A stretch of 39,188 nt of DNA, taken from positions 1-39,188 of the IMG/VR virus record IMGVR_UViG_3300028830_000027, one strand, 5' to 3'. The notes under the pieces were generated by a model. It saw nothing but the letters and a program-made list of their open reading frames with translations, did no database searches and was not told the origin of the DNA. The DNA is from a virus. The first letter of the stretch is position 1. Each line of letters begins with the position of its first letter. Shown in pieces: positions 1 through 39,188 of the stretch. Position numbers and translations under genes: made by a program.

Positions 1-141
1 GAAGTCATAGAGCCGCTGAGCGCCGACGCAAGATCATTAATCGACTTGAGCGCGGTTCCATCAAAGACCTGTTGTGTACGCTGTTGACCGGGCGACCGCT
101 TCACGCTCATATCCGCACGTAACGGGCGCATCAGCTCGGCC
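1..141. repeat. Terminal exact direct repeat, copy 1 (identical to 39048..39188)
   Basis: Bases 1-141 (gaagtcatagagccgctgag...gcatcagctcggcc) recur base-for-base as the last 141 nt of the window. The repeat lies inside the portal ORF, so it reads as a circularisation/assembly overlap. Confidence 0.95.
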
Positions 142-3994: not shown

Positions 3995-4017
3995 AGCGAG
4001 AGACCTCCTGTGCAAAG

Positions 4018-4030
4018 ATTATACCGCGTG
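4018..4030 (-). promoter_or_regulatory. Promoter-like motif cacgcGGTATAAT (proximal, minus arm)
   Basis: The reverse complement of attataccgcgtg gives TATAAT about 7 nt before a purine, followed by the SD and ATG at 3994. One of 8 copies of this motif. Confidence 0.6.
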
Positions 4031-4077
4031 GAGGCGAGGCGGGTCAGGCTGTGGACAGACCGGTGGGGAGTACCGGC

Positions 4078-4092
4078 ATTATACCGTGCGTG
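4078..4092 (-). promoter_or_regulatory. Promoter-like motif cacgcacGGTATAAT (distal, tandem with 4018)
   Basis: Second copy 60 nt upstream of the first, in the same orientation. Confidence 0.5.
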
Positions 4093-4170
4093 CTAGTAGG
4101 TCTTTCGGCCTATCAGATGGCATAGGCCTAATGTGACGCACACGGAAAAGTGTTGTGGGGGTTGAAGTTA

Positions 4171-4253
4171 AGGGGGGTCCATACCCCTCCCCAGTAATAA
4201 GAAGAGTTAAGATCTTAATTAAGAGTGTGTGGGGAGGGTCAAACCACCCCCCT
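4171..4253. repeat. 83-bp imperfect palindrome centred on TTAAGATCTTAA
   Basis: AGGGGGGT..ACCCCTCCCCA..TTAAGATCTTAATTAA..TGGGGAGGGT..ACCCCCCT. GC-rich arms flank an AT-rich perfect 12-bp palindrome at 4207-4218. It sits between the outward-facing promoters. Confidence 0.85.
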
Positions 4254-4320
4254 AAGTGTAGGCGCCATCAGCCTTTTCCGCGTGTGTCGGGTAGGGGCGA
4301 CAAGGGCCCGGACACACTCC

Positions 4321-4330
4321 ACGGTATAAT
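4321..4330 (+). promoter_or_regulatory. Promoter-like motif ACGGTATAAT (start of plus arm)
   Basis: TATAAT at 4325-4330 with the conserved CACGG prefix. It faces the early genes, and the first SD-led ORF starts about 1 kb downstream at 5369. Confidence 0.55.
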
Positions 4331-4761
4331 CACGGTACCTACCCTCCGTCTGTCTTGAGGGTGGTGTGCGGTGGCGCACAGTGGGGTACGCGGCCCACAT
4401 GCCCAGGAAGGCCCCTAGCTGGCCTCAGGTGCGACGAGGGGCCCTCATGCGGGTCTTCGGTCGGTCTGCGGTGGGATCGCGCTGTGGCGGGCAAGGGCGT
4501 GCGGGGCCTGGGGTGGGCTGCGGTGTACTAGACAGATTCGCTGCGCTCATCTGTCGGTCCGGGGTACAGGTAGGTACAGGCAGGTAAAGGGTCAGCCAAG
4601 GCAGGGGGTAGCAGGGTACGCAGCCCTCGAACCTTTAGGAGGGTCAAAAGTACCTGTCCATGGCCGCACGCCTCCCTCGCCCTGGCACGCGAATTGCATT
4701 CCATGGGTATACCCCTCCCCTCACACTACAGGTAGTGGTCCAACAGGGTCCCCGGCCACTA

Positions 4762-4933
4762 CATGTGGGGGTACGCCGGGCACAAGCATTGCAGGGCACG
4801 ACACACAAGCACCCACGCTTGCAAGCATGTGAGGGGTACGCACTGCAAGCATGGACACGCTGCATGTGAAGCTTGGACAACACTGGACACGCGCACCCCT
4901 CCACTAACGGACACTAACAGACATGTGAGGGGT
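4762..4933. repeat. Cluster of short direct repeats (CATGTGRRG x4, GCAAGCATG x2, GGACAC x3)
   Basis: catgtgggggtacgc at 4762, catgtgaggggtacgc at 4826, catgtgaag at 4863, catgtgaggggt at 4922; gcaagcatg at 4821 and 4845. Confidence 0.7.
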
Positions 4934-5077
4934 TTAGGTGCAAGTGTGGTAAAAAGGAGACAGGGGCGTGTAACCAATGGCTACTCCACTCGCCCCCACT
5001 TCCGCCCACAAGCTACCACGGCTCCCCTCTCACCTACGCGCCTCTGCTAACCTTCTCAACCACTTACACCACTCCGC

Positions 5078-5134
5078 ACCCCTCCCCGGTAAGAGAAGAG
5101 CCCCTCTTAACTCTCTCTATTATCAGGGAGGGGT
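5078..5134 (+). repeat. Second copy of the ACCCCTCCCC..GGGAGGGGT element (long hairpin)
   Basis: acccctccc (5078-5086) pairs perfectly with gggaggggt (5126-5134). The 5' part, acccctccccggtaagagaagag, matches 4183-4206 (acccctccccagtaataagaagag). Confidence 0.8.
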
Positions 5135-5368
5135 ACCGACATACCTAACTCCTTGTAATCACACACGGTAGCGGCACTGTCACGTCATCCCCCATTTCAA
5201 CCCTGTGACACATTTGCGCCCCACACCGCACACAATCGCCCCACCCCTCTCACTCCTAACCCCCACCCAACGTGCCCGGCAACCTCACCACCACAACCTA
5301 TAACCGCCTCCCCTTGGCCTGTCGATTGCAATACACCTTATCAACGACGGTAAACAGAGGAGCCCACA

Positions 5369-5539
5369 ATGACGTACAACGAAGCAGCAGCCTTAATAGG
5401 GAAAGTTCGAGAGATAGAAGTGAACGGGTTAGCGGTCGATGTAATGGTCAACGATGTGAAACAGGCTTACGGCCGTACACGGTACCTTGTCAGCCCTGTA
5501 GCCGGCCGAGGGCAAGTGTGGGTCGAACGGTTGGTATGA
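5369..5539 (+). CDS. Small protein (56 aa), paralog of 6862..7050
   Basis: GAGGAG SD 6 nt upstream. MTYNEAAALIGKV...YGRTRYLVSPVAGRGQVWVERLV aligns with ...YMGKV...FGRPSFLVEPVAGEGQMWLEHV. Confidence 0.65.
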   Translation: MTYNEAAALIGKVREIEVNGLAVDVMVNDVKQAYGRTRYLVSPVAGRGQVWVERLV

Positions 5540-11076: not shown

Positions 11077-11274
11077 ATGCGTTGCCCACGTTGCCAAGGT
11101 TTACTAGTCCGTGACTCATTCAACAATGTTCGCTTAGAAGACGCGCAGGTACACGCTGCCGTCCGGTGTGTCAACTGCGGGTTCATCGCTGACCAACTCA
11201 TACTCGCGCGATGGCTGAGTTACCGGCAACAAGCGTCCGCCGAGGTGCCTGTATCCGAGGTGTCCCATGCGTAA
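11077..11274 (+). CDS. Zinc-ribbon protein (65 aa)
   Basis: AAGGAGG SD. CPRC...CVNC spaced about 30 aa apart. Overlaps the next gene by 8 nt. Confidence 0.7.
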   Translation: MRCPRCQGLLVRDSFNNVRLEDAQVHAAVRCVNCGFIADQLILARWLSYRQQASAEVPVSEVSHA

Positions 11275-11587
11275 GGGCGCAGTGAGCCGATCGAATACGC
11301 TTGAAGAATGGTACTTGGACGCGTTGGCGTTCTTGTACCAGCGGTATAGGTACGAAAACGATGTGTTCCTTGACGATGTAGCTGGTCGTTTTGCTGTGCG
11401 TGCGACCTGTGCTTGGAAACGCTTTGACCCAAGTAGAGGCAAAGCCTTCACGTTCCTGTGTTGGATTGCGCGTGCGGCCTACAGTGATGCCGTCACGCAC
11501 AGAAAACGGGGCCGTGACCTCATGGGGGGCCTACACCGGGAGCGTATGACAGAGGAGTGGTTACATCAGTGTGTTGGCAGTGAATGA
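11267..11587 (+). CDS. Sigma-70 region-2-like protein lacking region 4 (106 aa)
   Basis: DDVAGRFAVRATCAWKRFDPSRGKAFTFLCWIARAAYSDAVTHRKRGR fits the ECF/sigma-70 region 2 pattern (FDP..G.F..WL..IA.N...D..R..R). Only about 25 aa follow. Confidence 0.6.
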   Translation: MRKGAVSRSNTLEEWYLDALAFLYQRYRYENDVFLDDVAGRFAVRATCAWKRFDPSRGKAFTFLCWIARAAYSDAVTHRKRGRDLMGGLHRERMTEEWLHQCVGSE

Positions 11588-12074: not shown

Positions 12075-12253
12075 CGTACACCACGGAGTATAAGCGTACA
12101 GGGCCTATTATTATAGGCGTTAGTGGTATCTACGTAAACCAACTATGCGATTTATCTAAAACGATATACATATATGCCTGTGGAATGCGTACCTTAATCA
12201 AAGTGGGTCATCAGTATGTTTGGGGACCGAGGGAGGGGGATGATGTTATATAA
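12071..12253 (+). CDS. Mini-protein D (60 aa; MTYTTEYKRTGPIIIGVSGIYV...)
   Basis: AGGAGG 10 nt upstream. Listed in the ORF track. Confidence 0.55.
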   Translation: MTYTTEYKRTGPIIIGVSGIYVNQLCDLSKTIYIYACGMRTLIKVGHQYVWGPREGDDVI

Positions 12254-12419
12254 GTACAATCGACGGGTTTTCATCGGTGTCGCCGGTCTGATAACGTATC
12301 CACAGTCCTGCGCCATCCCCCATTTCGCGTGTAACCGCGTCTGTTTTCACTCGGTACGGTTGGCGGAGGTGGGGCAAATAGAACGGCCTATGTGCGGGCG
12401 AGACCGGAGTAAACGATGA
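12240..12419 (+). CDS. Mini-protein E (59 aa; MMLYKYNRRVFIGVAGLITY...)
   Basis: AGGGAGGGGG directly upstream. Overlaps D by 14 nt. ATGA overlap with F. Confidence 0.55.
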   Translation: MMLYKYNRRVFIGVAGLITYPQSCAIPHFACNRVCFHSVRLAEVGQIERPMCGRDRSKR

Positions 12420-12577
12420 TATACCACATGAAGTCGCCCATTATGACCAGCACCAAGGGCGTACGTGTACTGACCCGAGTGCGCGGTTGTACAGTCCTTC
12501 TTGAGGCTCCTTGTGTGTTTTGTGCTGGAATGTATGTTGTGGTTCGCCCTGGTACTCGGAAAAAGTTTACACCATGA
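12416..12577 (+). CDS. Mini-protein F (53 aa; MIYHMKSP...GCTVLLEAPCVFCAG...)
   Basis: GGAG 6 nt upstream. ATGA overlaps at both ends. Confidence 0.45.
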   Translation: MIYHMKSPIMTSTKGVRVLTRVRGCTVLLEAPCVFCAGMYVVVRPGTRKKFTP

Positions 12578-12765
12578 AATATATACAAGGTTTTATTCAC
12601 CTGGGAGTCGCGGGGGTACACGTGAGGACTGTACCTGGTATGACTAACATGTCGTTCTTGCATAGCGTTGGCGTGCACTATGTACGGATAGGGCGTAATG
12701 GCGAGGTTTTACGCTATACCGGTCGCGACGACTTCGATGGAGACCAAACCCATGACTTATACTAG
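12574..12765 (+). CDS. Mini-protein G (63 aa; MKYIQGFIHLGVAGVHV...)
   Basis: ATGA overlap with F. This is the C-terminal part of the listed ORF 12511..12765. Confidence 0.5.
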   Translation: MKYIQGFIHLGVAGVHVRTVPGMTNMSFLHSVGVHYVRIGRNGEVLRYTGRDDFDGDQTHDLY

Positions 12766-12895
12766 TAAGACCCTCTATATTGACCAAGGCGGGCTGTTTA
12801 CCGCTCACATAAGCGTCAGGGTGCAGCTTGTCAGAAAACGAGAGAGGTACCTGTATCGACCTGACCCAAAGCCGCTTACGTCGCCGCGCTCGTAA
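12752..12895 (+). CDS. Mini-protein H (47 aa; MTYTSKTLYIDQGGLFT...)
   Basis: GGAG 9 nt upstream. Overlaps G by 14 nt. Confidence 0.45.
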   Translation: MTYTSKTLYIDQGGLFTAHISVRVQLVRKRERYLYRPDPKPLTSPRS

Positions 12896-12972
12896 GGTCT
12901 GGTAAAACCCTCAATCCATTATTCCGTGAACCGCGCCGCCAAACAAGCACGCAGGCAACGAGGTAGTAAAAA

Positions 12973-13149
12973 ATGGTCTATACGAATATGTCCGTGCGAA
13001 TTGACAACGACGGGATCTATTTTAACTCAGAGTTAGACGATGTGGCGTGTAGTATAGCTGTAGATATGTCGATCTTTAACGATAATATTGGATGGGCCTA
13101 TCGCCCCGACGCCCTCTCAACCCTTCGCGAGACTATCAAGATCCGGTAA
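12973..13149 (+). CDS. Mini-protein I (58 aa; MVYTNMSVRIDNDGIYF...)
   Basis: GAGGT 8 nt upstream. Its 3' end overlaps the convergent gene 13117..13848 by 33 nt, which lowers confidence. Confidence 0.35.
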   Translation: MVYTNMSVRIDNDGIYFNSELDDVACSIAVDMSIFNDNIGWAYRPDALSTLRETIKIR

Positions 13150-13874: not shown

Positions 13875-13884
13875 ATTATACCGT
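13875..13884 (-). promoter_or_regulatory. Promoter-like motif ACGGTATAAT for 13117..13848
   Basis: attataccgt on the plus strand, with the SD and ATG 13848 about 25 nt downstream. Confidence 0.6.
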
Positions 13885-13891
13885 AGTAACC

Positions 13892-13901
13892 ACGGTATAA
13901 T
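13892..13901 (+). promoter_or_regulatory. Promoter-like motif ACGGTATAAT for the nuclease/recombination operon
   Basis: Forms a perfect 10+7+10 palindrome with 13875..13884. ATG 13928 lies 27 nt downstream. Confidence 0.6.
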
Positions 13902-16335: not shown

Positions 16336-17907
16336 ATGCTACAAACCAGACCGAAACCCGCGACATGTGCCGCGTGTCCTGCCGCGAAACTAGGTACACC
16401 TCTTATCACAATCGATCAACAAGACCCTCATGCCGTCGCCACAGTTGTCCATTTCACGCCGGTTGCGATCCATGCGGGTCTTGAGGCGATGTATAAAAAG
16501 CAGGTGGCACCCACTACCGCTGTCAATCATGCGTGTCTCTTAAGGTGTGCGGGTGCGGCGGGACTCAAAGGGACTACTCGAGATGCCGCCGTCCATGCGT
16601 GTCGTCAGTATGACCACTGGACTACCAAGCTTGTCATGATTGCCGGTCGTGACGCCTGGGGGGCGCTCCACGCCTCACACGTCAGGTACACCGATTGGCT
16701 TGGCTACGTGTCCCCGAATGTACTCAACGGGCGTGCCATGCTTGCGACCATCGAAACGCGCGACTTGTATGACACCGACCGCATTGTCGAAGCCCGCGCT
16801 CACCTTCGCCGTGCCCTCTCATGGGTAGCGGGGACTTGGCCCGAGCAACTTCCAGAAAGCACACGGCAGCACACCGCGTTACAAGACCTACACGCCCTGA
16901 TACACGCGGAGCCCTGTACTATCGCGATTGACACGGAGTTTAACTGGTCGAAGGATGCTGTACCCGGCCACCACCCTTTGACCTTGCTTGGCCTTGGATG
17001 GCGTTCACAGACCGGTGTGCATCTCACCCAGTTCACTCCTGATGATGACTGGTCAGTTGTCCTCCCTCTACTCGCCCGTGTCGTCGGTCGCCATACCATA
17101 GTCTTTCAGAATGCAGCGGCGGACGTGCCTGTCATTGCGTTCAATGGTGGACCGGTATGGGAACAATACACGCACGTTGAGGACCTCATGTTGGCACATG
17201 CGACCTTGTACGCCGGGTGGCCGCATGACCTCGGCTACTTGCGGTCGATCGGTGGACACCTCAATATGCCGAAGACCTTCCGAGAAGCACACGAGGGCGG
17301 GGCGGCATCCTTCGCCAAGTACAACGCGGGCGACGTGTATGAGACACTGTGCCTCTGGGAAGACATGAGCCCTCAAGTGTTCAAAGATAAAGGGCTCACA
17401 CACACGTACCACACCCTTGTCAAGTTGGTACCGGTGCACACTCGAGCTACACAACAAGGTGTAGCGGTCTACAAGCCCGCTGTCGTGAAGGCCCTGGATG
17501 AATTACTCGCGGATGTCACGGAGTCCTTGCGTATTGTCGAAGCGTACACGGGTACCCCACTCCCGATGACCGGAAAGCCGTTTGTCACCTGGCTTGTATG
17601 CGTGGAAGGGGTCAAACCTGTGATTCACAAGATAAAAAAGCGTGTCACCTGGGATAAGGACGCGTTGGTAGTATTGCGGTCGCGCTACTTGTCTGTGGAC
17701 GCGGAGTATGAACAACGTAATCCGCTCACGATTGACGCAGTACGTGCCCGTATCGAGCAAGGCGCACACCCCATGTTAGAGGCACGCGCTCTCTATAACC
17801 GGGCGTTCCAGGCCTTCACGCACTATGTCCTGCCGCTTGTAAAAGGAGACTCAAACGATGGCGACGATCAAGACACTGACGGAACTGAAGGCGAGACTGG
17901 ATCGTGA
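16336..17907 (+). CDS. Family-A DNA polymerase, N-terminal ORF: unknown N-domain, 3'-5' exonuclease and thumb
   Basis: Exo I IAIDTEF, Exo II VFQNAAADVPV, Exo III YNAGDVYETL, then helical thumb-like sequence up to ..AFTHYVLPLVKG. Confidence 0.8.
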   Translation: MLQTRPKPATCAACPAAKLGTPLITIDQQDPHAVATVVHFTPVAIHAGLEAMYKKQVAPTTAVNHACLLRCAGAAGLKGTTRDAAVHACRQYDHWTTKLVMIAGRDAWGALHASHVRYTDWLGYVSPNVLNGRAMLATIETRDLYDTDRIVEARAHLRRALSWVAGTWPEQLPESTRQHTALQDLHALIHAEPCTIAIDTEFNWSKDAVPGHHPLTLLGLGWRSQTGVHLTQFTPDDDWSVVLPLLARVVGRHTIVFQNAAADVPVIAFNGGPVWEQYTHVEDLMLAHATLYAGWPHDLGYLRSIGGHLNMPKTFREAHEGGAASFAKYNAGDVYETLCLWEDMSPQVFKDKGLTHTYHTLVKLVPVHTRATQQGVAVYKPAVVKALDELLADVTESLRIVEAYTGTPLPMTGKPFVTWLVCVEGVKPVIHKIKKRVTWDKDALVVLRSRYLSVDAEYEQRNPLTIDAVRARIEQGAHPMLEARALYNRAFQAFTHYVLPLVKGDSNDGDDQDTDGTEGETGS

Positions 17908-18829
17908 CGGTGAGGACTTGTGTAAGGAGGTCGTACACCCGCGCCACGGCACCCACGCCCAGGCCACATTGCGCTGGTCTACGACGGACCCCCCAATGGC
18001 GCAGGTTCCCGGTGCTATGGAAGGTATGTTTGGCCCGGCAGAAGGCTACGGGTTCTTCCGTTACGATTGGGCCGCGTTGCATCTCTGGCTGACGGCAGCG
18101 TACGCTGACGATACCAAACTCCTCACCTTGCTCCGTACGGGGGCCGACCTCCACACGGTCAACTGTTGTGACCTGTTCGGCTTACCGTACCCCGCGAACC
18201 TCGTCAACCCCCACACGTCCCCGGAGTGTGCTGAATGGCGGACACTCGTCAAGTGGGAAAAGAAGGATGACCCTCGGAGAACGTTCGCCAAGCGGTTCCT
18301 GTATCGGGTGCTCAAGGGAGGCGACGTGAACAGCCCACCCGCCGGTATCCCGATGACCTTGTTCGGTGGCTCTGCAACCGGTTTCATCAAGGCTAGTCGT
18401 GCCTGGGCTTTGGCAAACGCGAAGGTCATGCAATGGCAGAACAACGTCAAGGCGCAAGTGCTCCGGGATGGTGCCGTCCGCACGGCCTGGGGTAAGATAC
18501 GCCGGTTCAGTAAGCGAGACGCAAAGGCACAACGGGGCGGGATTGACTTCTTGTGCCAAGGGACGGAAGCGGAGATCTTGAACGAGACGGTACTACTCAC
18601 AACCGCTGCGTTTGACCCGGCCCATGTACGCTTTGTGTACAGCCGCCACGACTGTATCATCTGGGAAGTCGCACACTCGGTGTGGTCCCCAGCGTTCCTC
18701 AAACAGATCGCGGACATTGCAACCCGACCTATCACCATCTATCAACACACGTTCAACCTGGAAGCGTCCTTCCATACACGGTATAATGCTGCTACAAAGA
18801 AACAAGATTGGACTCCCACGCAATCCTAG
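17858..18829 (+). CDS. Family-A DNA polymerase, C-terminal ORF: palm and fingers
   Basis: Own AAAGGAGA SD and ATG. LRWSTTDPPMAQVP (like TGRLSS.PNLQNIP), motif A DWAALHLWL, motif B RTFAKRFLYRVLKGG, motif C SRHDCIIWEV. Confidence 0.85.
   Translation: MATIKTLTELKARLDRDGEDLCKEVVHPRHGTHAQATLRWSTTDPPMAQVPGAMEGMFGPAEGYGFFRYDWAALHLWLTAAYADDTKLLTLLRTGADLHTVNCCDLFGLPYPANLVNPHTSPECAEWRTLVKWEKKDDPRRTFAKRFLYRVLKGGDVNSPPAGIPMTLFGGSATGFIKASRAWALANAKVMQWQNNVKAQVLRDGAVRTAWGKIRRFSKRDAKAQRGGIDFLCQGTEAEILNETVLLTTAAFDPAHVRFVYSRHDCIIWEVAHSVWSPAFLKQIADIATRPITIYQHTFNLEASFHTRYNAATKKQDWTPTQS
18777..18787 (+). promoter_or_regulatory. Promoter-like motif CACGGTATAAT inside the 3' end of the polymerase ORF
   Basis: TATAAT at 18782-18787, 55 nt before ATG 18842. 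Confidence 0.5.
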
Positions 18830-36448: not shown

Positions 36449-37375
36449 TGCTTGTTTCGCGATGAACCGGCGAAGGTCTAGCGCACGATTGATGGTTTCC
36501 TCGTGCTTCGGGTGCCGGTCATTAAAGTACGGACCCTTGGCGTCACTCATGATCTTGTCGAGTTCCTGTTGGGCGGTGAGAGCCCCTGTCGAAGTGTCCA
36601 GCTCTTCACCCACGAGGACATTATCCTCAACCAAGGCGCGGCCCATTTTGTACATACCTCGGATGAAGTTCGGGTCGTTAAAGAACCCTGCCTTGTCCAG
36701 TGCGCCCTGGACTTCCGGTGAGAAGTGCATGTCTACTGCTCGTTTTGCCAGCGCAACGAACTTCGGCATAGTAGAACCCCACCCTGGGTTCAACTCGTCA
36801 CCGGTCTTCAAGGCCTCGACACAGCTAGAAGCGGCAGCGTGTCTGTCCGGCTGTGCGGCGACTTCCTGTTGCGCTTGCCACGCGACGATATCACGTACTT
36901 GGTCATTCGTCAGGCCCATCTTATGCGCGGCTTCTTTGAACGCGGTCAACTGCGCTTCGTTCGCTTGCAAGCCAAGCTGCTCGTACGCGGGTAAGTCAAA
37001 TTTGTAGTCAGCGGGGGTTGCCGGGCGACCAAGCTCCTGTTGTAGGCGCTGTATTTTGGCCGCGCGTTCTTCCGGTTTGTCCGTCGGTAAGGGTACCGGC
37101 AACCTGCTCCCGAATGACTTCTGCGCTTGAACGTAGGACTCGACAACGGCTGAGATCGGCTTCCCCTTGAAGGTCTCCAAGGTCTTCTCAGCCTTGAGCC
37201 CGTCTGGTAAGCCGTCGAACCAGTTAATTTCTAGATTACCTGACGACGCAGCAGCACTACCCCCACTAGCTGTTCCCTGTGCGGGGGCTGAAGTAGAGGT
37301 GCTGTCGGTCGCTGTCTGGGCTGGCTGGCCCGCTAGAATACTCGGTGTCGTACCTGCTGGTGTCACTGGATCCAT
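36446..37375 (-). CDS. Scaffolding (capsid assembly) protein
   Basis: CAGGAGGA SD. Low-complexity N-terminus, then ..NWFDGLPDGLKAEKTLETFKGKP..SYVQAQKSFG and ELGRPATPADYKF, which are typical of podoviral scaffolds. Lies between the portal and capsid genes. Confidence 0.75.
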   Translation of the reverse strand: MDPVTPAGTTPSILAGQPAQTATDSTSTSAPAQGTASGGSAAASSGNLEINWFDGLPDGLKAEKTLETFKGKPISAVVESYVQAQKSFGSRLPVPLPTDKPEERAAKIQRLQQELGRPATPADYKFDLPAYEQLGLQANEAQLTAFKEAAHKMGLTNDQVRDIVAWQAQQEVAAQPDRHAAASSCVEALKTGDELNPGWGSTMPKFVALAKRAVDMHFSPEVQGALDKAGFFNDPNFIRGMYKMGRALVEDNVLVGEELDTSTGALTAQQELDKIMSDAKGPYFNDRHPKHEETINRALDLRRFIAKQA

Positions 37376-37610
37376 TGCGATTGTCCTCCTGGTTAAGGGT
37401 CGTGGTTCTACGGATCATATCGAAAATGCTTGTCACCACATGACGCATACCTTCGTTAAAGGCGGTCGCGTGGGGGTCGCCGGGTGTAAAGGTTGTCTTG
37501 TACACGAAGCAGCTACGCGCGAGGTCTTCTAGTACCGTTTGCCCTGCCGGGGTACTAAACGCCTCGTTGTAGCTGTTCACGATGGCTTGGAACTTTTCGT
37601 CTTCATCCAT
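37266..37610 (-). CDS. Bbp19-like small conserved protein (114 aa as listed)
   Basis: ..AGQTVLEDLARSCFVYKTTFTPGDPHATAFNEGMRHVVTSIFDMI fits the small protein found between portal and scaffold in BPP-1-like podoviruses. Its 3' 110 nt overlap the scaffold gene out of frame. Confidence 0.65.
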   Translation of the reverse strand: MDEDEKFQAIVNSYNEAFSTPAGQTVLEDLARSCFVYKTTFTPGDPHATAFNEGMRHVVTSIFDMIRRTTTLNQEDNRNGSSDTSRYDTEYSSGPASPDSDRQHLYFSPRTGNS

Positions 37611-37636: not shown

Positions 37637-39188
37637 CTAGGCCCCACCTCCCGCCGCTTGTGGTCCTATCTCCGAGGCGGTCTTCATCGCCTTGAAGGAC
37701 GACTCAGCGGTGGACGCATTCGAGGACGCTAAGGCAGCTTCCTCGGCCTGTGCTTGCCGGGCGGCGGCTTCCTCACGTTTAGCGTCACGGGCCTCGATTG
37801 GCACCAACCAGCGGGAAGGAACTCCTGTGTTGACAGACGCCTCTCGGATGATCGCGTCACCGTCATAGTTATCCATCAGACCTGGATTACTCGCTACAAG
37901 AGTCTGTGTCGCGGCAAGGACCTGCTGGAACGCGCCGACTTCGTTTGCCCTCTGCGATCGGGTTAGTGGAGACGTGTACACCACCGCGATGTCCGTGAAG
38001 CCCTGCGAGACGGCTTCGATCACGGGTTGCGGAGGTGGAGGAAGAACACCCGCCGTCATCAGCGCATCAAAGGCGTAGTCAATGAGAGGGTTGAACAACT
38101 CAACCTTGAGACGCGTGGTGGAGGGTGCTAGCATACGTTGCATCTGCTCGATATGCGAGGATACCTCGAAGGCCGTCATAAAGCTTTTGTTCGGGATCAA
38201 GAGTTGGTCACTGAAGAAGTAGTTCCTGATGGCTTGTCGGATCTGTTCTTCTTGAAAGTTCGCCACGTCAAACTTTGCGCCGGACTCAAAGGGAGCGACC
38301 GCATCACGGCTACGAACAACCGTACGCGTGCCTGACATCAGACGCAACTTCCCGATCACGCCGTCGTCAATTGTAAGCACAGGTGGATCAATCGCCTTTG
38401 CCCATTGGCGTAAACGCAACTCAACAGCGCGGTTCAAGGTCGCCACGTCCGGGTAGGCAATGTGACCTCTGCCGGTCCCATACACTTCCTCACTGGCTTT
38501 GTCCCAGCGCGGGGCGAGCACACGTAACTGCTTCAAAAAGGACTCCCGCAAGAGCGCCTTTGATTCCTTCTCAATGAACAAGAGGCGGTACTTACGACGC
38601 GGGGTTGCCTCGTTCGGGGGAAGGGGTTCAACAAACCGTACGATGCTCAACGGTTGGTCCGGGTTCTTTGCGGCGACCTTTCTCGTCTGTTCACTGACGG
38701 CAGAGCCAAACTGTTCAATAGCCGACGCGTGAGACATCGTGATTTCGCTGCCGACCACATTCGGGCGACCTTCGTGGTCCTCGGCAAGGACGTAACGGCC
38801 CGGTGCGATCGTCTTGAACACGAACCCGTTGAACTTCGTGGAGCGAATCGGCCTTTCGTCCATCCACATACACGCGGTTCCGAACACAATGAGGTCCTGG
38901 TACAACTCGTGAATCTCAGAACCGAAATTGCTCTGTTGGAAGGCCAGGTAGATCCGGCGTGAGCAATCCTCAAGCCACGTACGAACTTCCCATATCTCAT
39001 TCAAGGGTTCAAAGCCCATTTGTAAATTGAACCACTGATAGTCCACGGAAGTCATAGAGCCGCTGAGCGCCGACGCAAGATCATTAATCGACTTGAGCGC
39101 GGTTCCATCAAAGACCTGTTGTGTACGCTGTTGACCGGGCGACCGCTTCACGCTCATATCCGCACGTAACGGGCGCATCAGCTCGGCC
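37637..39188 (-). CDS. Portal (head-to-tail connector) protein, main body; 5' end continues at 142..236 by circular permutation. Full length about 548 aa.
   Basis: Long ORF directly upstream of the Bbp19-like, scaffold and capsid genes, with the packaging genes upstream. Size and N-terminal pattern fit podoviral connector proteins. Confidence 0.8.
   Translation of the reverse strand, partial: AELMRPLRADMSVKRSPGQQRTQQVFDGTALKSINDLASALSGSMTSVDYQWFNLQMGFEPLNEIWEVRTWLEDCSRRIYLAFQQSNFGSEIHELYQDLIVFGTACMWMDERPIRSTKFNGFVFKTIAPGRYVLAEDHEGRPNVVGSEITMSHASAIEQFGSAVSEQTRKVAAKNPDQPLSIVRFVEPLPPNEATPRRKYRLLFIEKESKALLRESFLKQLRVLAPRWDKASEEVYGTGRGHIAYPDVATLNRAVELRLRQWAKAIDPPVLTIDDGVIGKLRLMSGTRTVVRSRDAVAPFESGAKFDVANFQEEQIRQAIRNYFFSDQLLIPNKSFMTAFEVSSHIEQMQRMLAPSTTRLKVELFNPLIDYAFDALMTAGVLPPPPQPVIEAVSQGFTDIAVVYTSPLTRSQRANEVGAFQQVLAATQTLVASNPGLMDNYDGDAIIREASVNTGVPSRWLVPIEARDAKREEAAARQAQAEEAALASSNASTAESSFKAMKTASEIGPQAAGGGA
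39048..39188. repeat. Terminal exact direct repeat, copy 2 (identical to 1..141)
   Basis: Same 141 nt as the window start. Confidence 0.95.

What the first reader, a model, noticed from the sequence alone, without database searches (positions are those of the whole stretch)
4016..5368. 1.35-kb ORF-poor control region between the two divergent arms
Elsewhere genes are packed with ATGA or short overlaps, yet about 1350 nt here have no SD-led ORF. The listed ORFs (4155-5171) are low-complexity Arg/Pro/Gly products of biased composition.
- Two leftward and one rightward CGGTATAAT motifs
- An 83-bp dyad
- A duplicated hairpin element
- 10-bp-phased GGTA(C/A)AGG repeats at 4561-4590
- Perfect 7-bp hairpins (4107-4128 and 4531-4555)
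- A short-repeat cluster
The rightward promoter candidate at 4321 would give a roughly 1-kb untranslated, highly structured leader before the first early gene at 5369. This is the best candidate for the replication origin, the physical genome ends, and/or a long regulatory or non-coding RNA.
Basis: partly seen in the sequence, partly recalled or inferred. Interest (0 to 1): 0.7.

Follow-up and report, generated by a model that had tools for sequence, protein, structure and literature searches.

The report
Gene-free control hub of a phage
A 1.37-kb stretch without genes between the two oppositely read halves of an uncultured phage genome holds three genuine promoters, an almost invariant 83-bp mirror-symmetric DNA element and unusual G-run and C-rich tracts, so it is the phage's control centre and a plausible but unproven replication origin rather than a highly folded RNA.

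Summary
Nearly every listed feature is present. The window is a circular ~39-kb T7-like-structured podophage with no phage RNA polymerase. The 3995-5368 gap has no credible gene.

Shown:
- It holds 3 of the genome's 8 exact CGGTATAAT boxes. All are -35-independent. P_R (4323) is invariant in 13 of 14 relatives.
- The 83-bp dyad E1 (4171-4253), between the divergent promoters, is the most constrained sequence locally (pi 0.0013 versus 0.099 at synonymous-like sites). Its centre ties as the genome's most AT-rich 30-mer.
- E2 (5073-5140) is an inverted copy and the genome's strongest local hairpin.
- Downstream of P_R lie the genome's densest G-runs and its only canonical G4 motif, kept in 14/14 relatives.
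- Next comes the genome's most C-rich, least structured tract. Its composition is conserved although its sequence turns over.
- Patches of 9-11-bp phased repeats are hypervariable.
- 5150-5290 is a cassette-swap hotspot; relatives carry an HNH gene there.

Not supported: a "highly structured" leader (z=+0.5, no Rfam hit, 0/72 covarying pairs).

Untestable here: origin versus packaging site or genome ends.

Best reading: a transcription-control hub with an E1-centred, transcription-activated origin and a Rho-sensitive leader. It is a new member of a known kind, of moderate interest.

The parts
4018..4026 (-). P_L1: extended -10 box CGGTATAAT, 24 nt upstream of the ATG (3994) of the first leftward gene. 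The only site here that also has a -35-like hexamer (CTGACC).
4054..4088 (-). P_L2: box CGGTATAAT (4078-4086) plus a conserved initially transcribed sequence. The 35 nt are 77% identical to P_R in inverted orientation. Five relatives carry an 11-22-nt insertion just upstream, so the promoter is -35-independent.
4109..4128 (.). H1: 7-bp inverted repeat GGCCTAT/ATAGGCC at the left edge of the conserved core. Marginal significance; uncompensated stem change in 3 relatives.
4171..4253 (.). E1: 83-bp nested dyad (G/C clamp arms, AT-rich centre 4193-4230, palindrome TTAAGATCTTAA 4207-4218). It lies between the divergent promoters and is not transcribed from any CGGTATAAT box.
   Evidence: pi 0.0013; 1 variable site in 100; 80% A+T centre
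4319..4353 (+). P_R: box CGGTATAAT (4322-4330) plus an invariant +1..+24 segment. The -35 zone varies freely. It is the only promoter of this class upstream of the early gene block in this genome.
4394..4555 (+). Conserved G-run block transcribed from P_R. It has the highest GGG+ run density in the genome and contains the genome's only canonical G4 motif (4489-4513). It ends at hairpin H2 (4531-4555), where conservation stops abruptly.
   Evidence: (pi 0.025)
4556..4632 (.). Variable patch 1: GGTACAGGCA x2.8 (4563-4590). Replaced by different 9-11-bp phased units in other lineages.
   Evidence: (pi 0.35)
4633..4724 (.). Conserved block carrying the third direct copy of ATACCCCTCCCC (4709-4720). 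Read on the - strand, this copy mimics an SD for the non-conserved 58-aa ORF (4704->4528).
4800..4935 (.). Variable patch 2: arrays of (A)AGCWTSGACA / GGACA units at 10-11-bp or 22-bp spacing. The units differ between lineages.
   Evidence: (pi 0.29)
4960..5072 (+). C-rich, G-poor, unstructured tract, part 1 (rut-like in the P_R transcript). Composition is conserved across the hypervariable patch 5025-5054.
5073..5140 (.). E2: inverted partial copy of E1. It is the strongest local inverted repeat in the genome. The hairpin is kept in all variants, including one with a rewritten centre.
5141..5300 (+). C-rich tract, part 2, and cassette hotspot. The window-type filler (5210-5286) is replaced in relatives by a 370-486-nt HNH-endonuclease cassette with its own TATAAT boxes, or by an unrelated ~318-nt version of the spacer. 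All types rejoin at about 5277-5299.
5301..5368 (+). Shared proximal leader with SD GAGGAG ahead of the first early gene (ATG 5369).

Best explanation
The stretch is the phage's non-coding control hub.

SHOWN
- Two tandem leftward promoters (P_L1, P_L2) drive the packaging/structural arm. One rightward promoter (P_R) faces the early arm.
- All three belong to an eight-member, -35-independent C(A/G)CGGTATAAT promoter family read by the host RNA polymerase. No phage RNA polymerase gene was found.
- Between P_L2 and P_R lies E1, a two-fold symmetric, almost invariant 83-bp DNA element with an AT-rich centre. A second, inverted copy (E2) lies about 890 bp to the right.

INFERRED, most likely mechanism
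- E1 is a protein-bound unwinding element of the replication origin. Divergent transcription from P_L2 and P_R drives negative supercoiling into it.
- P_R transcription through the adjacent G-run/G4 block, which is on the non-template strand, favours a persistent RNA-DNA hybrid. The phage's family-A polymerase could extend that hybrid.
- The same P_R transcript then enters a ~340-nt C-rich, G-poor, unstructured tract with the E2 hairpin in its middle. This tract acts as a Rho-loading attenuator or gate in front of the early genes.
- In this genome the early genes have no other promoter of the family.
- The interspersed 9-11-bp phased repeats and the 5150-5290 segment are recombination-prone and exchange cassettes between strains.
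For: PROMOTERS
- 8 exact copies, each pointing at a gene. The -10 box and +1..+24 are invariant while the -35 zone varies or is interrupted.
- Classical -35/-10 matches are at chance level.
- No RNA polymerase, integrase or invertase was found.

NON-CODING
-.

E1
- pi 0.0013, versus 0.0098 at codon positions 1+2 and 0.099 at position 3 of the adjacent gene.
- The centre ties as the most AT-rich 30-mer and is the 5th least stable 40-bp duplex.
- The symmetry centre (4212) is 8 bp from the midpoint between the two -10 boxes.
- The E1/E2 core occurs only in this phage lineage.

G BLOCK
- The top 11 G-run-dense windows and the only loop<=7 G4 motif of the genome lie here; the motif is kept in 14/14 relatives.
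- Conservation has a sharp boundary at 4555/4556.
- A family-A polymerase is present.

C TRACT
- The 18 most C-skewed 80-nt windows and 8 of the 20 least structured 100-nt windows lie here.
- Composition is kept at C 0.45-0.63, G 0.07-0.14 although 60% of the columns vary.
- No intrinsic terminator was found in the leader.
Against: - No initiator or any DNA-binding protein could be identified.
- The repeats are not classical iterons: they are short, have 2-3 copies and are hypervariable.
- E1 lies upstream of P_R, not downstream as in the T4 or ColE1 origins.
- By 80-nt GC skew the G block is not exceptional.
- The cumulative GC-skew minimum is at about 1-2.5 kb, not at E1.
- Other AT-rich spots exist at 12-13 kb, near the replication genes.
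- The G block is more sequence-conserved than an R-loop function alone requires.
- The non-co-occurrence of the two G-run-destroying substitutions is not statistically significant.
- The host, and hence whether it has Rho, is unknown. Strong Rho termination would starve the early genes of this promoter-less genome type.
- The nearest sequenced relative with the same arm layout has only about 30 nt between its arms, so such a hub is not a requirement of the genome type.
Confidence: 0.45

Rival explanations
1. Packaging site or genome ends. E1, possibly with E2, is the terminase recognition or cutting site. It could be a cos-type site at the symmetric centre of E1. Alternatively E1 and E2 could be mirror-image cut sites delimiting a ~950-bp direct terminal repeat. 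The mature linear genome would then have convergent early and late arms, as in LUZ24/PaP3-type podophages.
For: - E1 lies 177 bp upstream of the operon that contains TerL.
- Nested two-fold symmetry suits a dimeric nuclease.
- The inverted E1/E2 pair sits 890 bp apart.
- The window is a circular assembly, so the ends are unknown.
- The ~1.3-kb gene-free junction with promoters and short repeats resembles the circularised T7 end region (own knowledge).
- Two contigs stop inside E1's left arm 8 nt apart.
Against: - 17 contig ends in the region are scattered and share no coordinate. Nine contigs read straight through E1 and E2.
- Breaks coincide with strain-variable junctions, for example 5265/5292.
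- The TerL class is uninformative.
- E2 is about 30-fold more diverse than E1, which is unexpected for two equivalent cut sites.
- This does not explain the G-run block or the C tract.
Confidence: 0.25
2. Pure transcription switch. E1 and E2 are operator or enhancer sites for a phage or host regulator that co-controls P_L2 and P_R, which share their first 25 transcribed nucleotides, possibly by looping. There is no origin or packaging role.
For: - Symmetric sites are typical of dimeric regulators.
- P_L2 and P_R are duplicated, including their initially transcribed sequence.
- E1 is roughly centred between them.
- All arms use one promoter class, so some extra factor must set the timing.
- The phage encodes a sigma70-region-2-only protein.
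Against: - E1's centre is 115-131 bp from either -10 box, too far for simple occlusion.
- An 83-bp element with 1 variable site in 100 is far larger and more constrained than a usual operator.
- No HTH or other regulator was detected.
Confidence: 0.2
3. Functional non-coding RNA. P_R makes a discrete ~220-nt RNA (4337-4555) or a long regulatory leader whose E2 hairpin, embedded between two C-rich segments like boxB between rutA and rutB at lambda tR1, recruits an antiterminator.
For: - Sharp conservation boundaries run from +1 to hairpin H2.
- Four one-sided changes keep pairing through wobble.
- The E2 hairpin is kept in all variants, and a rewritten centre re-pairs.
- E1 read leftward equals E2 read rightward, the nutL/nutR geometry.
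Against: - No Rfam match even at E<=1.
- Stability does not exceed shuffles.
- 0 of 72 pairs are compensatory and three pairs are broken.
- The 5' helix of the transcript is disrupted in relatives.
- H2 has no U-tract.
- E1 lies upstream of both leftward promoters, and no leftward box exists to its right.
Confidence: 0.1
4. Hidden small protein genes, for example frame +4355 (58 aa) or the SD-led 58-aa ORF on the - strand, explain the conservation.
For: - 7 of 11 variable sites in 4394-4555 share one codon phase. 6 of 10 changes are synonymous in frame +4355, and the neighbouring indels are 9 and 6 nt.
- The - strand ORF has an SD and ATG and stays open in all variants.
Against: - Frame +4355 has a TTG start, no SD and a premature stop in 5 of 14 relatives. 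P is about 0.03 before correcting for six frames (my arithmetic).
- The - strand ORF has a frameshifted or replaced C-terminal half, radical N-terminal changes and no leftward promoter.
- No family hits.
- Arg/Pro/Gly/Cys-rich composition.
Confidence: 0.06
5. Invertible promoter switch or mobile element. E1 and E2 are the inverted repeats of a recombinase-flipped segment or of a MITE-like element carrying P_R.
For: 36-nt inverted repeats (78% complementary) flank an ~890-bp segment that carries a promoter.
Against: - No recombinase or transposase gene.
- All nine spanning contigs have the same orientation.
- The core motif occurs nowhere outside this phage lineage in IMG/VR or metagenome contigs.
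Confidence: 0.02

Closest known systems
Phage T7 end/concatemer-junction region (terminal repeat, SRL/SRR short repeats, host promoters A1-A3, phiOL); own knowledge, Dunn and Studier 1983
   Same: - About 1.3 kb without genes once the genome is circularised.
- Several strong host-polymerase promoters in tandem.
- Arrays of short repeats.
- Adjacent to the first early genes.
- T7-like structural module here: portal PF12236 and the gp11-gp17-like gene order and sizes.
   Different: - T7 is read in one direction and has its own RNA polymerase.
- Here the arms diverge, and no RNA polymerase gene was found.
- No terminal repeat has been demonstrated.
- T7 has no E1-like dyad.
Transcription- or R-loop-primed origins (ColE1 RNA II, T4 oriF/oriG, T7 phi1.1A/B, mitochondrial LSP-CSB II); own knowledge
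   Same: - A promoter reads into G-clusters or a G4 on the non-template strand, next to an easily melted AT-rich element.
- A family-A polymerase is available.
   Different: - The unwinding candidate (E1) is upstream of the promoter, not downstream.
- There is no sequence similarity to these origins.
- No RNase H or processing signal is known.
- All of this is inference.
Lambda nutR/tR1 (boxB hairpin between rutA and rutB; nutL and nutR inverted in the DNA); own knowledge
   Same: - A strong hairpin (E2) is embedded in a C-rich, unstructured leader downstream of the rightward promoter.
- A second copy in inverted orientation lies on the other side.
   Different: - E1 lies upstream of the leftward promoters, so it is not in their transcripts.
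- E1 and E2 are 70-83 nt, against 15 nt for boxB.
- No N, Q or boxA equivalent was found.
LUZ24/PaP3-type podophages (convergent early and late arms on a linear genome, with short terminal repeats or cos ends); own knowledge
   Same: If linearised inside this region, the genome has the same layout. The early arm would read rightward from the left end and the structural arm leftward from the right end, both transcribed by host polymerase.
   Different: - No sequence relationship: no GenBank phage DNA match, and the best TerL identity is 43%.
- The ends are not determined here.
T4 late promoters and gp55 (a -10-only 8-bp promoter read by a phage sigma that has only region 2); own knowledge
   Same: - An 8-9-bp extended -10 motif without a -35.
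- The phage encodes a 106-aa protein matching only sigma70 region 2.
   Different: - The motif contains the canonical host TATAAT.
- Nothing shows which sigma reads it.
- No gp33- or clamp-type co-activators were identified.

Membership tests
-35-independent (extended -10) bacterial promoter | Consensus -10 hexamer with a conserved upstream extension, over-represented and sharply defined | tested here: met
   8 exact CGGTATAAT copies; variants with up to 2 mismatches occur at chance level (74 versus 71.6).
-35-independent (extended -10) bacterial promoter | Correct orientation and distance to downstream genes | tested here: met
   The five copies outside the region lie 9-54 nt upstream of start codons on the matching strand. 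P_L1 lies 24 nt from ATG 3994.
-35-independent (extended -10) bacterial promoter | The -10 is conserved while the -35 zone is free to vary | tested here: met
   P_R -17..+24 is invariant in 13 of 14 relatives and its -35 zone has 6 variable sites. P_L2 tolerates an 11-22-nt insertion at about -18.
-35-independent (extended -10) bacterial promoter | Mapped transcription start | not testable with these tools
   Needs 5'-end mapping during infection.
Rho-dependent terminator / rut site | At least ~80 nt of C-rich, G-poor RNA | tested here: met
   The 18 most C-skewed 80-nt windows of the genome lie here: C 44-55%, G 9-12%.
Rho-dependent terminator / rut site | Little secondary structure, and untranslated | tested here: met
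   8 of the 20 least structured 100-nt windows lie here. No credible ORF.
Rho-dependent terminator / rut site | Rho-dependent 3' ends | not testable with these tools
   The host is unknown. Needs Term-seq with and without Rho inhibition.
Iteron-type origin (lambda ori, P1, theta plasmids) | Three or more conserved direct repeats of about 17-22 bp | tested here: not met
   Units are 9-11 bp with 2-3 copies. Unit sequences differ between lineages and pi is 0.29-0.35.
Iteron-type origin (lambda ori, P1, theta plasmids) | Adjacent AT-rich unwinding element | tested here: met
   The E1 centre is 80% A+T, tied for the top 30-mer of the genome.
Iteron-type origin (lambda ori, P1, theta plasmids) | Initiator gene at or next to the origin | tested here: inconclusive
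   No initiator family was detected, but the flanking genes are ORFans.
Transcription/R-loop-primed origin | Promoter reading into G-clusters on the non-template strand | tested here: met
   P_R is followed by the top-11 G-run windows and the only G4 motif of the genome, kept in 14/14 relatives.
Transcription/R-loop-primed origin | RNA-to-DNA transition or persistent hybrid | not testable with these tools
   Needs DRIP and nascent-strand mapping.
Structured non-coding RNA | Match to a curated family | tested here: not met
   0 hits at gathering score; only two chance-level hits at E<=1.
Structured non-coding RNA | Stability above shuffles | tested here: not met
   z = +0.5 (+ strand) and -1.7 (- strand) for 1 kb. 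Locally only E2 stands out.
Structured non-coding RNA | Compensatory base changes | tested here: inconclusive
   0 of 72 pairs, but only 11 variable sites in the block.
Physical genome termini (cos or terminal repeat) | Independent contigs or reads ending at one coordinate | tested here: not met
   17 ends are scattered with none shared, and nine contigs read through. This is a weak test, because terminal repeats assemble through.
Physical genome termini (cos or terminal repeat) | Read-start pile-up or a two-fold coverage step | not testable with these tools
   No read data are available here.
Invertible DNA switch | Site-specific recombinase encoded, and both orientations found | tested here: not met
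   No recombinase. 9 of 9 spanning contigs are collinear.
Lambda-type nut site | Hairpin copies lying downstream of both divergent promoters | tested here: not met
   E2 is downstream of P_R, but E1 is upstream of P_L1/P_L2 and no leftward box lies to its right.
Protein-coding gene | Start signal plus amino-acid-level conservation | tested here: not met
   A weak codon-phase hint in frame +4355 is not significant.

The most novel reading that the evidence does not exclude
This is a compact origin-plus-gate module of a kind not described for phages.
- Divergent host-polymerase promoters flank an ultra-conserved symmetric unwinding element (E1).
- P_R transcription through the genome's only G-quadruplex motif leaves an R-loop that primes the phage's family-A polymerase.
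- The same transcript is then stopped or licensed by Rho at a C-rich tract carrying the E2 hairpin. Replication priming and early-gene expression would thus be two alternative fates of one transcript.

An equally unexcluded variant is that E1 and E2 are mirror-image terminase cut sites bounding a ~950-bp terminal repeat that contains the early promoter.
Probability: 0.15. Interest if true: 0.65.

Novelty: new member of a known kind. Interest (0 to 1): 0.4.

Why it matters
This lineage of uncultured podophages has almost no annotatable early genes. For such a lineage the region supplies the first concrete handles on regulation:
- a defined promoter motif that predicts the whole transcription map
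- a single element (E1) under stronger constraint than the neighbouring protein's replacement sites
- a promoter / G4 / C-tract arrangement that makes transcription-coupled origin firing and Rho gating directly testable

It also shows how a phage control region can be a mosaic. Invariant cis elements are interleaved with fast-evolving phased repeats and a cassette-exchange hotspot, which fragments metagenome assemblies exactly here. If E1 is the origin or the packaging site, it is the natural target for building vectors, or for host-linking assays, for this phage group.

Tried and rejected
- DNA searches of GenBank phages, near and distant modes: no match.
- tRNA/tmRNA scan: none.
- Rfam at gathering score and at E<=1: nothing credible.
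- Global and sliding RNA folding: no excess structure except at E2.
- RNAalifold on 11 variants: no covariation.
- Six-frame ORF integrity and synonymous/non-synonymous counts: no gene.
- Pfam and PHROGs on ten region ORFs: none.
- Mobile-element or MITE idea: the E1/E2 core is absent from IMG/VR, and in metagenome contigs it occurs only in relatives of this phage.
- Invertible switch: no recombinase and no inverted orientation.
- Classical intrinsic terminators in the leader: none.
- Classical -35/-10 promoters: at chance level.
- Distant relatives (IMG/VR L001-L010, MW202742, a Brocadiales MAG): different GC content, no such gap, no shared motif, so uninformative.
- The 210-aa flanking protein has a single homolog cluster, so no intermediate-distance relatives exist for covariation.
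- TerL class from PDB and tblastn: uninformative.
- PDB sequence searches of the three genes upstream of TerL: nothing.
- Structure prediction: the 210-aa model failed (pLDDT 33). The 56-aa protein is a generic SH3/Tudor-like barrel.
- Literature search for the sample accessions and for comparable architectures: nothing useful.
- Contig-end clustering as a proxy for termini: scattered.
Full report
**Context**

- The window carries a 141-nt terminal overlap inside the portal gene, so it is a circular assembly of a 39,047-bp genome.
- The leftward arm starts at ATG 3994. It runs through three ORFan genes and the large terminase (1183-2574). It continues across the window join into a T7-like structural module: portal PF12236, capsid, and gp11-gp17-like gene sizes.
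- The rightward arm starts at 5369 and carries small ORFans plus:
  - an AAA ATPase
  - a 106-aa protein matching only sigma70 region 2
  - a helicase
  - a PD-(D/E)XK nuclease
  - a Sak4-like protein
  - a split family-A DNA polymerase
  - an Mre11-like nuclease
- No RNA polymerase, integrase, invertase or initiator was detected.
- No GenBank phage matches at the DNA level.
- The best TerL relatives are uncultured 'Manatee Spring' phages at 43%. These have the same divergent layout but only about 30 nt between the arms.

**Observation check**

Nearly every listed feature is present at the stated coordinates.

- Three CGGTATAAT boxes.
- The 83-bp nested dyad E1, 4171-4253.
- Its second copy E2, 5073-5140, which is an inverted copy.
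- The 10-bp-phased GGTA(C/A)AGG triplet.
- Two 7-bp hairpins, which are marginal at z about -2.
- A short-repeat cluster: 4 of the genome's 11 TRF arrays lie here.

Two statements fail.

- The leader is not 'highly structured'. It gives z = +0.5 on the transcribed strand, and only E2 stands out.
- One ORF, 4704->4528 on the - strand, does have an SD-like sequence. That sequence is a copy of the repeated TACCCCTCCCC motif. The ORF's C-terminal half is frameshifted or replaced between lineages.

**Relatives**

- Exact-protein look-ups and one metagenome DNA scan recovered about 20 contigs from other samples that are 88-98% identical.
- No relative of intermediate distance exists in the collections.
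- The alignments show a mosaic:

| Segment | Nucleotide diversity (pi) |
|---|---|
| Adjacent 210-aa gene, third codon positions | 0.099 |
| Adjacent 210-aa gene, positions 1+2 | 0.0098 |
| E1 core (1 variable site in 100) | 0.0013 |
| P_R with its first 24 transcribed nt | 0.0038 |
| Block 4394-4555 | 0.025 |
| E2 | 0.043 |
| Patches 4556-4632, 4800-4935, 5025-5054 and 5141-5209 | 0.24-0.35 |

- The conserved core has sharp edges at about 4096 and at 4555/4556.

**Coding and RNA tests**

- No frame behaves like a gene.
- There is a weak codon-phase hint in frame +4355. Seven of 11 variable sites share one phase, and the neighbouring indels are 9 and 6 nt.
- Against that hint, the frame has a TTG start, no SD and a premature stop in 5 of 14 relatives. 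It is not significant after correcting for six frames.
- Rfam gives nothing.
- RNAalifold finds 0 compensatory pairs among 72, and the predicted 5' helix is broken in relatives.
- A structured long RNA is therefore not supported, although variation is too low to exclude a small one.

**Promoters**

- The exact 9-mer CGGTATAAT occurs eight times, while near-variants occur at chance level.
- Each copy points at a gene.
- In relatives the -10 box and the downstream sequence are invariant. The -35 zone varies (P_R) or is interrupted by an 11-22-nt insertion (P_L2).
- Classical -35/-10 matches are at chance level.
- This is therefore the phage's one clear promoter class.
- In this genome P_R is the only copy upstream of the early block.
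- P_L2 and P_R also share their first ~25 transcribed nucleotides.
- Which sigma factor reads these boxes, the host's or the phage's region-2-only protein, is unknown.

**E1 and E2**

- E1 lies between P_L2 and P_R and is not transcribed from any box of this class.
- Its symmetry centre (4212) is 8 bp from the midpoint between the two -10 boxes.
- Its centre is 80% A+T, tied for the most AT-rich 30-mer in the genome, and it is the fifth least stable 40-bp duplex.
- E2 is the strongest local inverted repeat in the genome.
- E2 keeps its hairpin in every variant, including one whose centre is rewritten and re-pairs.
- The shared core occurs only in this lineage.
- Because E1 is untranscribed, recognition at the DNA level is the simpler reading for both elements. 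An additional RNA role for E2 is not excluded.

**Mirror-image tracts**

- Downstream of P_R, the + strand carries the genome's highest density of G-runs; the top 11 windows lie at 4281-4700.
- It also carries the genome's only canonical G-quadruplex motif (4489-4513), which is retained in 14/14 relatives through redundant runs.
- Further right, 4960-5300 is the most C-skewed stretch (top 18 windows) and among the least structured (8 of the lowest 20) in the genome.
- Its composition is preserved while 60% of the columns in patch 5025-5054 vary.
- In the P_R transcript, the G block is the arrangement that favours R-loops and the C tract is the signature of a Rho-loading site.

**Variable patches and hotspot**

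- Each lineage has its own short arrays at 9-11-bp period: GGTACAGGCA, GGGCACAGGC, AAGCATSGACA, TCGACAACCT and TGGACAGGG.
- Spacings between successive GACA words peak at 10-11 and 22 bp.
- So the phasing is shared but the sequence is not. This argues against classical iterons.
- The spacer between E2 and the first gene exists in three unrelated versions:
  - this window's 233-nt C-rich filler, with no promoter box
  - an HNH-endonuclease cassette with two TATAAT boxes
  - a ~318-nt alternative
- Assembly breaks coincide with these junctions; the 5265/5292 break is one example.

**Genome ends**

- 17 of 44 whole-contig ends fall in the region, but they are scattered.
- Nine contigs read through E1 and E2 collinearly.
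- This fits fragmentation at strain-variable patches. It gives no support for a fixed terminus, but it cannot exclude terminal repeats.
- The TerL class is uninformative.

**Mechanism**

Shown:
- The region is a non-coding hub with three real promoters.
- E1 is an extremely constrained, symmetric cis element.

Inferred, and my preferred model:
- E1 is an origin unwinding or binding element activated by divergent transcription.
- P_R transcription through the G-run/G4 block supplies an R-loop primer for the phage's family-A polymerase.
- The C tract with E2 gates the same transcript before the early genes.

Rivals, in order of weight:
1. E1 and E2 as a packaging site or genome ends
2. a pure regulator-binding switch
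3. a functional RNA
4. hidden small genes
5. an invertible switch

Evidence against the preferred model:
- No initiator was found.
- E1 lies upstream of P_R, not downstream.
- The GC-skew minimum is 1.5-3 kb away.
- Alternative AT-rich spots exist at 12-13 kb.
- The host is unknown.

**Comparison and verdict**

- Functionally the region resembles the gene-free end or junction region of T7-like phages, transcription-primed origins (ColE1, T4 oriF/oriG, mitochondrial LSP-CSB II) and, for E2 in the C tract, lambda nutR/tR1.
- It fails the tested defining features of iteron origins, nut sites, invertible switches and structured RNA families.
- It is best filed as a new, lineage-specific member of the known kind 'phage intergenic control/origin region'.
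- Interest is moderate. Nothing here overturns expectations, but the module is well defined and directly testable.

Noticed in passing
window 1-141 and 39048-39188: Exact 141-nt terminal direct repeat inside the portal gene. It is an assembly overlap of a circular contig, so the genome is 39,047 bp and the window ends are arbitrary.
   Followed up: yes
relatives L017-L020, L024, L026, L028, L029, L033, L035 at the position of window 5210-5286: A free-standing HNH endonuclease gene (123 aa, PF01844), with its own CGATATAAT box upstream and a TCATATATAAT box downstream, replaces 77 nt of the window. L019 has an internally deleted version. A third, unrelated ~318-nt version of the spacer occurs in L031, L032, L036 and L037.
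   Followed up: partly
window 13875-13901: Two promoter boxes sit back to back, 12 nt apart, forming the near-palindrome ATTATACCGTAGTAACCACGGTATAAT between the helicase (-) and the PD-(D/E)XK nuclease (+) genes.
   Followed up: partly
window 37266-37610 (-): A 114-aa ORF with a normal-looking N-terminal ~75 aa starts only 9 nt after the -10 box of the 37627(-) promoter, making it a near-leaderless candidate gene. It is absent from the public gene calls and overlaps the start of the 309-aa scaffold-like gene.
   Followed up: partly
window 16336-17907 and 17858-18829 (+): The family-A DNA polymerase is split into two ORFs overlapping by 50 nt. The nearest GenBank relative has a single 815-aa gene. 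This could be a split gene, a frameshift or an assembly error.
   Followed up: no
window 11267-11587 (+): A 106-aa protein matches only sigma70 region 2 (E = 1.5e-6). The next ORF has no region-4 hit. It may be relevant to the -35-less promoter family.
   Followed up: partly
L036 1207-2140: One relative carries a ~900-nt insertion holding a 70%-identical second copy of the first early gene plus extra ORFs, placed ahead of the normal early operon.
   Followed up: no
window 4092 (insertion in L020, L028, L029, L030, L037): A GTGTGGTGC-type unit of about 11 nt is present in 0, 1 or 2 copies immediately upstream of P_L2. It shifts E1 relative to P_L2 by about one or two helical turns.
   Followed up: partly
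window 4183-4190: Contig L016 ends at 4190 and contig L036 starts at 4183. Both are inside E1's left arm and overlap by 8 nt (ACCCCTCC). With n=2 this may be chance, but it is the pattern that a filled-in 5'-overhang cos end would give.
   Followed up: partly
window 5292-5297: The window has TATAAC where every relative has TATAGC. The window type is also the only one lacking a promoter-like box between E2 and the first early gene.
   Followed up: no
window 5369-5539 (+): The first early protein (56 aa) models confidently (pLDDT 88) as an SH3/Tudor/chromo-like beta-barrel (TM 0.7-0.78 to PDB chains). Its function is unknown.
   Followed up: partly
window 12100-13100: A zone of small ORFs upstream of the helicase contains three of the five least stable 40-bp duplexes of the genome and several top G-skew windows. 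It is an alternative origin candidate.
   Followed up: no
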